Shown piece after piece: positions 12,001-15,000 of a DNA stretch of 34,196 bases. Within the stretch, counting starts at the first letter, position 1; every line of letters starts with the position of its first letter. Made by a program: the position numbers. The DNA comes from a virus. Its lineage: Duplodnaviria > Heunggongvirae > Uroviricota > Caudoviricetes. The stretch is from IMG/VR virus record IMGVR_UViG_2563366972_000006, one strand, 5' to 3'.

Positions 12001-15000
12001 AGTGGATATTGAGACTCAGACAATATAAAATAGATGAATATGAGTTAATTGTTGCCCACTTTGTAATAGGCGTTTCTTTGAGAAAGATCGCAAAAAGAAA
12101 TAAATGTGCGGATGGGACTATTAGAAAAAAAATACAAGCAGTGATGGGAATATTGGAGGGAGTATTAATGTTCTAACTGTTAGAGCTAAATAAAAATCTT
12201 CGCAAGAAATATTCCTGCTGCAATAGAACTTGGTAGCCAAGCCAAATACATAAATAACTTTATTGTATTATCACATTTGGTTTGGCTCTTTGATAGTTCA
12301 TATAGAGCCTCATTAATGTCCTTCTTAATGTCCTTCTTAAGGTCTTCTGGATAATTTTCATTGTTTTTTAGAAAAGGCATAAATGCTATATCTTTAGCAT
12401 GGCAAATATGTTTTAATTGTTTATCCTGATTGAGTAATACCATATGTAAAATAAGTGAGCTTAACAATACACCTAATAAAACGAGTAACATTTCAGATCT
12501 TGATGTTAGTTTTATAATCCCGAAGGATGCCAGTAAAGACACAGGGATTGATAATACTTTTGTCGTCAAATCAGTAATAAGTTTTGAGATTTTTTCAGCA
12601 AACTCTGCTTCAGACTTCGCAATTTCTTTTCGTGCCTTATGGAATGAAAAACCACTCATATACGTGGATAAATTATTTTCAAATAGCTTTACAAATTTAT
12701 CCCAATGGCAAATTAGGTTTTCAAAATCATATTTGTTATCGAGAATAAACTCCACTATGGTATTCCTGAAAATACCTGTTTTTTCTGCTTGATGGGGGAT
12801 TTGGGCGTTTTTTACATCTAAAAGACTCTTGATGATAGCATCATCAATGTCATTTATATTGAGCATCTTAGGTGTAATGCACGTTTCTAAAATAATAGAT
12901 GTTGATTTTGCGTCAGAATCTTTCACGAAAACTAAACGATAATTTGAAGATTCCGATTTTGTATCGTGAAAGTGCGCAATCTCAGCCTGGGAAGAAATAA
13001 TTGCACAAATTTTCTCGATTTTTATAATTTCGTCCGGTTTACTTGAATCAGACGGATGAAAATCCTCATCGATTATGTAATACTCTTTAGGAATTACACC
13101 TTTCTTGAGTGAGTTTATACAAAGGAACTCTTGAATTGAGTTATAGAAACGTTCTGCTCCATTTTTAGGGGATATGTAAGTGTATGAGAATTTATCTCCA
13201 ATTTTAATTGGGTGTGATTTTAAATCGTCTTCGTCAATGAACTCATTATTAATATCAACATCTTCAAAATAACCGTAGGCTTTATGTGAATTTACTAACA
13301 AGTTTACCAAACGTTGATTGTTATTATTTATTTCAACAGTTGCAGAAAAAGAACGTCCGTCGAATTGGGGCTTCGATGATGCTCTATAAAAATCCACAAC
13401 CGTTGATAAATTAGCCATTTTCTTTTCCACTATCCCTTAGTTTTAAATTTTCTTTTACCACAGCGCTTAGTTTAGCCTTAAATTCAGCTGGTAAGTTTGT
13501 AAATGATAATCTTCCAGTTGTTTCATCGTACCACACATCATCATCAGCTGTCACTCCAAGGAGAGACTTGTCAAAATTAAATCCAATCTCATCAGTCTTA
13601 AAGGTGATGTTTTTAATGTCTTTCAACGCCCGTTTACTAATAACAAATTCAGTTGGAATTCTCACATTTTCACTATTTAAAAAAAGAATTAATTCGTGAG
13701 TGTAAGATTCTTTGGTAGACTCATCTAAATTTGTCATGTGACGTGCTGCAATTACTTCAATATCACTCAATCGGGCTGACAAATTTTTAGCTGCTTGTGT
13801 GTCTAAATATGTAATAACGTCATGTTTAAATCTATTGGCACATGCTTTAAGTTCTGGTTTTTGGTTAAAAAATTGTTTTGCGACAGTTGGTAGTTTTTTT
13901 GTGGCTTTTGCTGCTGCAAGTGATTTGTCGCATCCTATTGCTGCAATAAAATATGCTGATGTGGATTGACCCACTCCTTTACTTACGAAACTTAGATAAC
14001 TTAAGTCAATTTTTTCAGACTCATCAGCAGTTTTATATTGTTGGTAGAGATTGAAATTTATTCTTGCTGCTTGGTGTATTTTGGATAGATCCAAATGGAT
14101 CATTTCTTCAGGTTCGAGTTTGTTGCTGATAGTAACACCATTTTTCTTTTTAATCATTGCAATTAAAAAGAATTTATTGTTATTTACAATATAGTCACAA
14201 AACACAATAAAACCACCAGATGACCAAGGTTCTTCTTTGGCTTTTTTTACAAGTTGCTTCATCACTTCAATAGAAAAAGGCACAAACTTTTCATTAATGT
14301 TATCCTCTGACTGAGAATACTCTTCAAATATTGATGGCACAGGCCCTTGTTCTGTTTTCTCCTCTTTAAAAACGCCATAATGTGCAGAATTGCCTTTGGT
14401 TCCATATAAAGATGAAATGTCTTGAATAAGTTTTATAACAATTGGATTGGTTTTATCGAGAGGAGTGGATCTAAGCTGATACGGCTTAGAAAAATCAAAA
14501 TCCTTTTTTGCTTCTTTAATTAGTTCATGAACGATAACTTGCTTAATTTCCATATTGAAAATATCACCTATGTTATTGTTAGATCGTTTGTGATTTTTTA
14601 CCATCACAACAACGACACAAAATCATTAATGCGTACGCAAAAATTTTGAATAATGAGTTAATCAATGTCAATAGTTAAACACACTACCGCTGTAGAGTTG
14701 TTGTCATTAAATTGCGTCATAAGTAGAATTGCTGCGGTGCTTGAGGCTATCTGTCTCAGGCATGAACACCAAAAGGCAGATAGAGAAAAGCCCCAGTTAA
14801 CATTACGCGTCCTGCAAGACGTTTAACATTAATCTGAGGCCATATCTATGCGACACATAGAGATTAGCCTCTTACGGACCGAAAGGTCAAGGAGAAGCAG
14901 GCTATGAAGCAGCAAAAGGCGATGTTAATCGCCCTGATCGTCATCTGTTTAACCGTCATAGTGACGGCACTGGTAACGAGGAAAGACCTCTGTGAGGTAC

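What the first reader, a model, noticed from the sequence alone, without database searches (positions are those of the whole stretch)
12186..14553. AT-rich two-gene operon: NdpA/YejK-like nucleoid-associated protein plus C-terminally membrane-anchored protein - candidate undescribed phage-exclusion/abortive-infection module
Two co-oriented minus-strand genes overlap by 8 nt (ATGGCTAA: the downstream start overlaps the upstream stop), implying translational coupling. The upstream product (about 380 aa from ATG 14553) aligns by eye along its length with the NA37/YejK (NdpA) nucleoid-associated family (MEIKQVIVHELIKE, SSGGFIVFCDY, LSFVSKGVGQ, WYDETTGRLSF). The downstream product (410 aa) has a roughly 290-aa N-terminal region I cannot assign and three hydrophobic helices near the C-terminus. 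Both genes are far more AT-rich than the flanking phage genes and sit in a prophage accessory island beside a hok-type toxin. A DNA-binding, sensor-like protein coupled to a membrane protein is the architecture of many abortive-infection and superinfection-exclusion modules; I know of no described defence system built from an NA37-family protein with such a partner. A candidate promoter (TTGACA at 14670-14665, minus strand) lies upstream.
Basis: partly seen in the sequence, partly recalled or inferred. Interest (0 to 1): 0.85.

Follow-up and report, generated by a model that had tools for sequence, protein, structure and literature searches.

The report
Prophage nucleoid-protein plus membrane-effector defence pair
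This prophage two-gene operon (a YejK-like nucleoid-binding protein plus a membrane-anchored partner) is a real, strongly co-conserved module, but its type was shown to be an anti-phage defence system in 2025-2026 (DS-1 / Type II PANGU), so it is an untested distant relative of a known kind, not a new kind.

Summary
Gene A (13411-14553, minus strand, 380 aa) is a full-length NA37/YejK protein (Pfam E 2.4e-51). Gene B (12186-13418, minus strand, 410 aa) overlaps it by 8 nt, matches no Pfam family, and has three C-terminal hydrophobic helices. GC is 0.31-0.35 against about 0.5 in the flanks.

The claim that the pair is undescribed is out of date. NCBIfam (June 2026) has models for DS-1, an E. 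coli NAP plus 404-aa partner system validated in DefensePredictor (preprint 2025, Science 2026). Both window proteins hit these models (E about 1e-28) but fall far below the equivalog cut-offs. A 2026 preprint (PANGU) describes Type II systems with the same layout: a YejK-like sensor and an effector with an acidic N-terminal domain and a C-terminal TM domain.

In ten further contexts B always follows an NA37 gene: lambdoid prophages, an integrase/primase island, a defence island, a conjugative plasmid, a Klebsiella phage and a short metagenome contig. Divergence of A and B is correlated (r 0.95). The B family has about 1,000 clusters at 50% identity. Its N-domain is confidently modelled but has no relative in the PDB.

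Verdict: a new member of a known kind. This variant is rare (4 of 5,426 E. coli genomes). The effector mechanism is still unknown.

The parts
13411..14553 (-). Gene A: YejK/NdpA-like nucleoid-associated protein (NA37), 380 aa. Predicted sensor (PagA-like / DS-1A-like).
   Evidence: Pfam PF04245 E 2.4e-51, full length. PHROG 3767 'nucleoid associated protein' E 2.4e-73. NCBIfam YejK 139 bits (cut-off 341) and DS1_1_antiphage 101 bits (cut-off 330). PDB YejK 9be2 E 3.2e-14. 22% identity over 214 aa to DS-1A, E 1e-8.
12186..13418 (-). Gene B: 410-aa membrane-anchored partner. Predicted effector (Pag2B-like / DS-1B-like).
   Evidence: No Pfam or PADLOC family. PHROG 5023 (unknown function) E 1.8e-67. 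NCBIfam DS1_2_antiphage E 2.8e-28, 99 bits against a cut-off of 315. Against DS-1B: BLASTP 25% over 200 aa, E 6e-14; hhalign probability 97.4%. AF2 model pLDDT 87.
12705..13418 (-). B residues 1-238: cytoplasmic alpha/beta N-terminal domain, mildly acidic. Candidate NAP-binding ('DMK'-like) domain.
12555..12704 (-). B residues 239-288: long conserved helix ('NNLSTYMSGFSFHKARKE...') leading into the membrane.
   Evidence: AF2 helix 239-288. This is the most conserved stretch of the family, with N249, Y253, F257, F259, H260, K261 and E270 invariant. It is also the core of the region aligned to DS-1B.
12432..12554 (-). B residues 289-329: hydrophobic hairpin (TM1 about 289-305, TM2 about 310-329).
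   Evidence: Kyte-Doolittle peaks, maximum 2.73 at residues 315-322. AF2 helices 290-303 and 307-355. P292, A297 and G316 are invariant.
12264..12431 (-). B residues 330-385: charged helical hairpin between TM2 and TM3, inferred to be cytoplasmic. Contains a 12-bp tandem repeat (12313-12348) that adds 4 aa (KKDI) only in this window.
   Evidence: AF2 helices 307-355 and 358-392. TRF period 12, 3.1 copies. The 4-residue insertion is absent from all 26 aligned homologues.
12189..12263 (-). B residues 386-410: third hydrophobic helix, with invariant P396.
   Evidence: Hydropathy, AF2 helix 395-409, and W394 and P396 conserved.
14643..14671 (-). Candidate sigma-70 promoter of the operon (TTGACA, 17 nt, CAAAAT).
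   Evidence: Consensus scan, 10 of 12 matches. Such sites are not enriched over shuffled sequence, so this is weak evidence.
11649..12176 (+). Antiterminator-Q-family gene lying tail-to-tail with gene B (9-bp spacer). It belongs to the same variable segment (about 11500-14720) and is linked to the pair in all lambdoid contexts. It is context, not necessarily a functional part.
   Evidence: PF06530 E 2.9e-29. Q genes of the same subfamily (49-58% identity) abut B in L002, L007, L009, L014 and L020. Homology of the flanks to other prophages stops near 11500-11600 and resumes at about 14720.

Best explanation
The operon is a prophage-carried, two-gene abortive-infection defence system of the 'nucleoid-associated-protein sensor plus membrane effector' class (Type II PANGU; DS-1 of DefensePredictor). 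It belongs to a sister clade of the validated DS-1 proteins.

Proposed mechanism. (1) Protein A, a YejK/NA37 homologue, sits on the host nucleoid in uninfected cells. This is inferred from family membership and shown for Pag1A/Pag2A in the PANGU preprint, not here. (2) When an infecting lytic phage degrades or displaces host DNA, A is released. This was shown for PANGU-Ecu with T4, where denA/EndoII escape mutants arose; it is inferred here. (3) Free A binds the acidic cytoplasmic N-terminal domain of B (residues 1-238), which competes with DNA for A. Binding was shown for Pag2A with the Pag2B DMK domain (KD 19 nM); here only conserved net-negative charge and tight A/B co-divergence are shown. 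(4) Binding changes the state of B's long stalk helix and three-helix membrane region, damaging membrane integrity or ion balance and stopping the infected cell before phage release. This step is inferred: the effector mechanism is unknown even for the published systems.

The pair is expressed from its own promoter, opposite to the phage late genes, as a lysogen-protecting moron. Translational coupling (8-nt overlap) helps fix the A:B ratio.
For: - **A is NA37/YejK.** Shown.
- **Both proteins hit the DS-1 models.** NCBIfam DS1_1 and DS1_2 anti-phage models give E 5.8e-29 and 2.8e-28.
- **Direct comparison with DS-1 sequences** taken from the paper's Table S8: B against DS-1B gives E 6e-14 and hhalign probability 97.4%; A against DS-1A gives E 1e-8.
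- **DS-1 gave protection.** For D390, -log EOP was 7.6 against Bas1, 2.7 against Bas26 and 1.7 against Bas3 and T3. It is listed as replicated.
- **Published Type II PANGU architecture and experiments** are.
- **B architecture.** The alpha/beta N-domain plus long helices plus three hydrophobic helices is shown. The N-region is net-negative in 162 of 162 relatives.
- **Co-conservation.** NA37 lies immediately upstream of B in all ten other contexts examined (L001, L002, L005, L007, L009, L011, L013, L014, L019, L020), with spacing of -11 to +36 bp. Pairwise identities of A and B correlate at r 0.95 over 36 locus pairs.
- **Mobile and defence contexts.** These include an integrase/AlpA/primase island in Dickeya, a position next to a BrxR-type WYL regulator and HsdM in Arsukibacterium, a position near a NACHT protein on a Pseudomonas conjugative plasmid, and a variable cargo slot between DUF977 and hokD in E. 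coli prophages.
- **Patchy, rare distribution.** The variant occurs in 4 of 5,426 complete E. coli genomes.
Against: - No experiment exists on this pair or its close relatives.
- Homology to DS-1 is remote (22-25% identity over about half the length). Both proteins score less than a third of the NCBIfam equivalog cut-offs, so conservation of function is an inference.
- The N-domain is only mildly acidic (net -9 over 290 aa, pI 5.4). That is within the range of ordinary cytoplasmic proteins, and DNA mimicry was not tested.
- DS-1A has an N-terminal zinc ribbon that A lacks.
- B carries a unique 4-aa insertion whose effect is unknown.
- Only some other cargoes of the DUF977-hokD slot match known defence models.
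Confidence: 0.75

Rival explanations
1. Reversed (Kiwa-like) logic. The membrane protein B senses phage attachment, DNA injection or envelope stress, and releases or activates the DNA-binding protein A. A then coats or occludes incoming phage DNA to block replication or late transcription, without killing the cell.
For: The membrane protein plus cytoplasmic DNA-binding protein layout resembles Kiwa (KwaA/KwaB; from my own knowledge, not tested here). A has the only recognisable biochemical activity of the pair (DNA binding). The B N-domain has no enzymatic or known fold. The Pag2B effector mechanism is explicitly unresolved.
Against: For Type II PANGU-Ecu, T4 escapes through denA (EndoII) mutations, Pag2A leaves the nucleoid on infection, and growth arrest at high MOI indicates abortive infection. 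Neither protein hits the Kiwa models included in PADLOC. Gene order and sizes differ from kwaAB (own knowledge).
Confidence: 0.1
2. This is not a defence system. A is a prophage-encoded nucleoid protein that serves the phage itself, by silencing or organising prophage or host DNA. B is an independent lysogenic-conversion or superinfection-exclusion membrane protein that merely shares the operon.
For: PHROGs files A under 'DNA, RNA and nucleotide metabolism' and B under unknown function. The pair sits in a classical moron position of lambdoid phages, next to Q.
Against: The same pair occurs outside phages: on a primase/integrase island, in a chromosomal RM/BrxR neighbourhood and on a conjugative plasmid. 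A and B co-diverge at r 0.95 with conserved coupling or overlap, which argues for a physical partnership. Remote homologues were validated as defence systems in which both genes are needed.
Confidence: 0.07
3. The pair is a toxin-antitoxin or addiction module. B is a membrane toxin held in check by A, stabilising the prophage in the same way as the adjacent hok/sok.
For: It is a two-gene, translationally coupled operon with a small membrane-active-looking product, lying next to another post-segregational killing locus.
Against: In the PANGU study neither single gene was toxic, and the authors state that it is not a classical TA system. B is 410 aa with a large structured cytoplasmic domain, unlike small membrane toxins. 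A shows no sign of a labile antitoxin.
Confidence: 0.05

Closest known systems
DS-1 (working ID D390) of DefensePredictor (DeWeirdt et al., Science 2026, PMC13092281; preprint 10.1101/2025.01.08.631726); NCBIfam NF053868 / NF053869
   Same: It is a two-gene E. coli operon in the same order: NA37/YejK-domain protein first (391 aa), then a roughly 400-aa partner (404 aa) with hydrophobic helices near the C-terminus. Both window proteins hit the DS-1 HMMs (E about 1e-28) and align directly with the DS-1 proteins.
   Different: Identity is only 22-25% over about half of each protein, and scores are under a third of the equivalog cut-offs. DS-1A has an N-terminal zinc ribbon that is absent here. 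All B-family members tested (window, L002, L009, L011, L019) fall below the cut-off, so this is a sister clade and not DS-1 itself. The phage range of this clade is unknown.
Type II PANGU (Pag2A/Pag2B, PANGU-Ecu), bioRxiv 10.64898/2026.04.06.716658
   Same: It is a YejK-like NAP plus an effector with an acidic N-terminal domain and a C-terminal TM domain, arranged as a bicistronic operon with less than 40 bp spacing, and it occurs in E. coli. The preprint's operon Cluster 2 is reported as widely distributed across phyla. Here, the roughly 1,000-cluster size of the B family and its presence in Pseudomonas and Sphingomonas fit a widespread family.
   Different: The PANGU-Ecu sequences are not held in the library, so homology could not be measured. 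DNA mimicry by the B N-domain was not tested, and its acidity is modest. PANGU-Ecu protects against T4 and Bas34, whereas this pair is untested.
E. coli YejK (NdpA), housekeeping nucleoid-associated protein (PDB 9be2)
   Same: Same fold family over the full length.
   Different: A scores 139 bits against the 341-bit YejK equivalog cut-off. A is 45 aa longer, is encoded on a prophage, and is always paired with B, whereas yejK is a stand-alone core gene (own knowledge).
Kiwa (KwaA/KwaB)
   Same: It is a two-gene defence system coupling a membrane protein to a cytoplasmic DNA-binding protein (own knowledge).
   Different: There is no sequence match to any PADLOC model, which includes Kiwa. Gene order is opposite, the folds differ, and the published sensor logic for NAP systems differs.
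CorA-type channels and ClyA-type pore formers (structural resemblance only)

Membership tests
NA37 / YejK nucleoid-associated protein family (Pfam PF04245) | Full-length match to the family HMM above the gathering score | tested here: met
   175.5 bits against a cut-off of 24.6, residues 7-358 to profile positions 1-324 of 325. 9be2 YejK E 3.2e-14.
YejK proper (NCBIfam NF001557 equivalog) | Score at or above the equivalog cut-off (341 bits) | tested here: not met
   139.4 bits. A is a paralogous, mobile-element NAP, not the housekeeping YejK.
DS-1 anti-phage system (NCBIfam NF053868 / NF053869 equivalogs) | Both proteins score at or above the equivalog cut-offs (330 and 315 bits) | tested here: not met
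   101.2 and 99.0 bits. The matches are significant (E about 1e-28) but remote, so the pair is a homologue and not an equivalog.
DS-1 anti-phage system | Detectable homology of both components to the validated proteins WP_000355468.1 and WP_000150292.1, with the same gene order | tested here: met
   BLASTP E 1e-8 for A and 6e-14 for B; hhalign probability 97.4%. The order NAP then partner is the same in both.
Type II PANGU | YejK-like NAP gene in a bicistronic operon (neighbouring genes less than 40 bp apart) | tested here: met
   8-nt overlap. Spacing is -11 to +36 bp in the related loci measured.
Type II PANGU | Partner protein with a C-terminal transmembrane domain | tested here: met
   Three hydrophobic segments at about residues 288-409, modelled as helices and conserved in the family. 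No dedicated TM-topology predictor was available.
Type II PANGU | Acidic N-terminal 'DMK' domain that mimics DNA and binds the NAP | tested here: inconclusive
   Net charge -9, pI 5.4. The region is negative in 162 of 162 relatives, median -12. The acidity is modest, the surface electrostatics and shape could not be computed, and binding is not testable here.
Type II PANGU | Sequence homology to Pag2A/Pag2B of PANGU-Ecu (the authors' HMMs) | not testable with these tools
   No supplementary files or accessions are held for the preprint.
Type II PANGU / DS-1 | Both genes required for protection against phage; abortive-infection phenotype; escape through phage nucleases that degrade host DNA | not testable with these tools
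   This needs experiments. Published only for PANGU-Ecu, and for DS-1 as EOP data only.
Known defence systems in PADLOC-DB v2.0.0 (2023), including Kiwa | HMM match to any component model | tested here: not met
   No hit for A. B has only a noise-level hit (RT_X, E 0.039).

The most novel reading that the evidence does not exclude
The B family (about 1,000 clusters at 50% identity) is a new class of NAP-gated membrane effector. Its roughly 240-residue cytoplasmic domain has no fold relative in the PDB and acts as a DNA-competitive docking site for the NAP. A CorA-like stalk helix transmits NAP binding to a three-helix membrane module, which oligomerises into a pore or channel. This would supply the missing effector mechanism for Type II PANGU / DS-1. 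A second point is that, in lambdoid phages, the pair is fixed tail-to-tail to one antiterminator-Q subfamily, between Q and pR'. This may reflect co-mobilisation as a three-gene cassette or a regulatory link to the lysis-lysogeny state.
Probability: 0.3. Interest if true: 0.55.

Novelty: new member of a known kind. Interest (0 to 1): 0.35.

Why it matters
That gives some support to the scan's reasoning, but the kind itself is no longer new.

What this locus still offers is a natural, prophage-borne and apparently intact member of a large, untested sister clade of DS-1. It comes with a high-confidence structural model of an effector whose mechanism the published work leaves open. It also provides a well-defined variable cargo slot (DUF977 to hokD, and Q to pR') in E. 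coli lambdoid prophages that could be mined for further cargo genes. Testing this clade would show how far the NAP-release sensing principle extends, and whether its phage range differs from DS-1 (Bas1, Bas26) and PANGU-Ecu (T4, Bas34).

Tried and rejected
1. **Antisense shut-off by late transcription.** I considered whether Q-dependent late transcription runs antisense through the operon, so that a prophage would switch off its own abortive-infection system on induction, because B's stop abuts or overlaps Q's stop. This is rejected as unsupported. In L002 and L009 a terminator hairpin, preceded in L002 by a promoter-like site, lies between gene A and the holin (L002 6833-6806 and 6739-6718; L009 5616-5593). 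That is the expected pR'/tR' arrangement, so the pair sits between Q and pR'.

3. **PDB sequence search with the B profile.** Nothing better than E 0.31.

4. **Phage collection.** No nucleotide match. By protein search, only one sequenced phage (Klebsiella P7641) carries a homologue.

5. **Is the DUF977-hokD slot a pure defence hotspot?** Only partly. One alternative cargo, a SMEK-domain protein, matches a PADLOC model. The others (DUF5677, alpha/beta hydrolase) match nothing.

6. **PANGU-Ecu sequences.** None are held for the preprint, so the direct comparison could not be made.

7. **Promoter.** The TTGACA site exists, but promoter-like sites are not enriched over shuffled sequence.
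Full report
**1. What is in the sequence**

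The window is a lambdoid prophage. From left to right it carries:
- an integrase (1-1236, minus strand);
- an ExoVIII/RecE-like exonuclease;
- a CI-type repressor (7541-7948, minus strand);
- YdaT and replication genes (DUF1376, a DnaC/IstB-like ATPase);
- DUF1627 and DUF977;
- an antiterminator-Q-family gene (11649-12176);
- the two genes of interest on the minus strand;
- hok/sok;
- DUF1367, YbcO and a second Q-like gene (DUF1133);
- two tRNAs, then holin, M15 endolysin and Rz;
- terminase and portal.

Gene A is 13411-14553(-), 380 aa. Gene B is 12186-13418(-), 410 aa. The ATG of B overlaps the TAA of A in ATGGCTAA.

GC falls to 0.31-0.35 across the pair, against about 0.50 to the left. Promoter-like sites are not over-represented in this AT-rich DNA.

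**2. Identity of the two proteins**

A is an NA37/YejK protein over its whole length:
- Pfam PF04245, E 2.4e-51;
- PHROG 3767, E 2.4e-73;
- solved YejK 9be2, E 3.2e-14.

It is not the housekeeping YejK, scoring 139 bits against the 341-bit equivalog cut-off.

B has no Pfam or PADLOC family, but it belongs to PHROG 5023 (unknown function, E 1.8e-67). Hydropathy shows three hydrophobic segments at about residues 288-305, 310-329 and 386-409.

An AlphaFold2 model built on 27 homologues (pLDDT 87) shows an alpha/beta N-terminal domain (1 to about 230), a 50-residue helix (239-288) and then a helical membrane region. The N-domain modelled alone is very confident (pLDDT 91.6, pTM 0.86). It nevertheless has no relative among solved structures:
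- Foldseek gives nothing at E <= 0.001.

**3. The pair is a conserved unit**

A word-indexed search found 45 B-family clusters, all in Enterobacterales. An exhaustive HMMER profile search found 1,047 cluster representatives at 50% identity with E <= 1e-3. Of these, 631 have E <= 1e-10, and almost all are 400-430 aa matched end to end.

I examined ten further genomic contexts, and an NA37 gene lies immediately upstream of B in every one:

| Locus | Organism or element | Context |
|---|---|---|
| L001 | E. coli | 99%-identical prophage |
| L002 | E. coli | a different lambdoid prophage (B 40% identical) |
| L005 | Dickeya zeae | integrase/AlpA/primase island |
| L007 | Xenorhabdus | prophage |
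| L009 | Klebsiella pneumoniae | prophage |
| L011 | Arsukibacterium | next to a BrxR-type WYL regulator and HsdM |
| L013 | metagenome contig | short contig |
| L014 | Yersinia enterocolitica | prophage |
| L019 | Pseudomonas putida | conjugative plasmid, near a NACHT protein |
| L020 | Klebsiella phage P7641 | sequenced phage |

Gene spacing ranges from an 11-bp overlap to 36 bp. Pairwise identities of A and of B across nine loci correlate at r = 0.95. That figure is not corrected for shared ancestry, but it shows the two genes are inherited as a unit.

The variant in the window is rare, at 4 of 5,426 complete E. coli genomes. A second E. coli variant is found in 6 genomes.

**4. It is already a described kind**

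NCBIfam release 20 (June 2026) contains two relevant models: NF053868 'DS1_1_antiphage, nucleoid-associated anti-phage protein' and NF053869 'DS1_2_antiphage'. A hits the first (E 5.8e-29, 101 bits) and B hits the second (E 2.8e-28, 99 bits, covering B residues 89-394). Both are far below the equivalog cut-offs of 330 and 315 bits.

DS-1 is working ID D390 in DefensePredictor (Science 2026, PMC13092281; preprint January 2025). That paper lists 'a YejK nucleoid-associated domain' among domains newly validated in defence. Its supplementary tables give the following:
- the locus, NZ_RRVY01000002.1 220602-222994;
- the proteins, WP_000355468.1 (391 aa, NA37) and WP_000150292.1 (404 aa);
- the screen values, -log EOP 7.6 on Bas1, 2.7 on Bas26, and 1.7 on Bas3 and T3.

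Direct comparison with those sequences gave:
- B against DS-1B: 25% identity over 200 aa, E 6e-14;
- B-family profile against DS-1B: hhalign probability 97.4%, E 1.3e-11 over 206 columns;
- A against DS-1A: 22% identity over 214 aa, E 1e-8.

Other B-family members (L002, L009, L011, L019) also hit DS1_2 only below the cut-off. The whole family is therefore a sister clade of DS-1B.

**5. Mechanistic precedent**

The bioRxiv preprint 10.64898/2026.04.06.716658 (April 2026) names YejK-like-NAP operons PANGU. [quoted passage not shown]

For an E. coli Type II system (PANGU-Ecu) the authors report:
- a 3-4 log reduction in phage plaque counts among the active operons, tested against T4 or Bas34;
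- a requirement for both genes, with no toxicity of either gene alone;
- an abortive-infection growth phenotype;
- T4 escape through denA (EndoII) mutations;
- relocalisation of Pag2A-GFP from the nucleoid on infection;
- binding of Pag2A to the DMK domain with a KD of 19 nM.

They state that how Pag2A activates Pag2B 'remains to be determined'. No sequences are held for this preprint, so I could not test whether PANGU-Ecu is this clade, DS-1, or a third clade.

Of the architectural features, the NAP, the tight operon and the C-terminal TM region are met here. The acidic N-domain is met only weakly. Net charge is -9 and pI 5.4 in this protein, and the region is negative in 162 of 162 relatives with a median of -12. 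That degree of acidity is not unusual for cytoplasmic proteins.

**6. Best explanation**

The operon is a prophage-borne abortive-infection module of the NAP-sensor plus membrane-effector class. I put the confidence that it is a defence system of this class at 0.75. I have less confidence in the individual mechanistic steps, which are transferred from remote homologues.

The following is shown here: family membership of A, remote homology of both proteins to DS-1, the architecture of B, the co-conservation, and the mobile or defence contexts.

The following is inferred: nucleoid residence and release of A, binding of A to the B N-domain, and membrane damage by B.

Rivals are listed with their refuting tests: Kiwa-like reversed logic, a phage-serving NAP with an unrelated membrane protein, and a toxin-antitoxin module.

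**7. Context findings**

In all lambdoid contexts the pair lies tail-to-tail against a Q antiterminator of one subfamily, 49-58% identical. The spacer is 9 bp in the window, and there are 4-11 bp overlaps elsewhere.

In L002, a promoter-like site followed by a terminator hairpin lies between gene A and the holin. In L009 a terminator hairpin occupies the same position. The pair therefore appears to be inserted between Q and pR'/tR'. This removes the idea that late transcription silences it by antisense.

In the window the Q gene travels with the pair. Homology of the flanks to thousands of E. coli prophages stops after DUF977 (about 11500) and resumes just before hok/sok (about 14720). Other prophages hold different cargo in that slot:
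- a SMEK-domain protein plus a methyltransferase;
- a DUF5677 protein;
- an alpha/beta hydrolase;
- QueH.

Only the SMEK protein matches a known defence model.

**8. Verdict**

This is a new, untested member of a known kind (DS-1 / Type II PANGU).

The residual interest has two sources. The first is the unknown effector mechanism, together with a confidently modelled N-domain that has no relative among solved structures. The second is the conserved linkage to Q.

Noticed in passing
window 11649-12176 and 16644-17186; also L002, L007, L009, L014, L020: The prophage has two Q-like antiterminator genes. The one at 11649-12176 abuts gene B tail-to-tail with a 9-bp spacer. Q genes of the same subfamily (49-58% identity) abut or overlap B in every lambdoid context examined, which suggests a co-mobilised Q+B+A cassette or a fixed Q-pR' insertion slot.
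   Followed up: partly
window about 11500-14720 (between DUF977 and hok/sok); L016, L017, L018: This interval is a variable cargo slot in thousands of E. coli lambdoid prophages. Alternative cargoes include a SMEK-domain protein plus a methyltransferase, a DUF5677 protein, an alpha/beta hydrolase and QueH. Only the SMEK protein matches a PADLOC model.
   Followed up: partly
window 12313-12348: A 12-bp tandem repeat (3.1 copies) inside gene B adds four residues (KKDI) in the loop between TM2 and TM3. All 26 aligned homologues lack this insertion, including the 99%-identical E. coli copies (406 aa). Its effect on function is unknown.
   Followed up: partly
window 13417-13473: An imperfect 30-nt tandem duplication (1.9 copies, 85% matches) lies at the 3' end of gene A, just upstream of and reaching the A/B overlap. 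It encodes ...KLSAVVKEN / LKLRDSGKEN.
   Followed up: no
window 15226-15293: A perfect 9-bp tandem repeat (TTGTTGTAT, 7.6 copies) lies in the intergenic region downstream of hok. It produces a spurious LLYLLY... ORF. Its function is unknown.
   Followed up: no
window 1557-1735: A full-length match to the RalA sRNA (RF02694, 207 bits), the antitoxin of the rac-prophage RalR/RalA type I toxin-antitoxin system, lies next to the integrase end of the prophage.
   Followed up: no
window 14735-15059: A complete hok/sok locus: Hok (PF01848, E 1.2e-23) at 14904-15059, the Rfam sok element at 14735-14906, and a terminator-like hairpin at 15125-15142.
   Followed up: partly
window 20034-20651 (minus strand): A 205-aa ORF in the opposite orientation, in a low-GC patch (0.39-0.42) just after the Rz lysis gene, has a weak histidine-phosphatase (His_Phos_1) match (E 2.5e-5). 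It is probably another moron or accessory gene.
   Followed up: no
window 17538-17691: Two adjacent phage-borne tRNA genes (tRNA-Thr UGU and tRNA-Gly UCC) lie between the second Q-like gene and the holin.
   Followed up: no
L019 (Pseudomonas putida plasmid p716811-VIM) 3855-10415: A distant NA37+B pair sits on a 243-kb conjugative VIM plasmid, about 2 kb from a NACHT-domain protein. This shows that the module also travels on resistance plasmids, near defence-type genes.
   Followed up: partly
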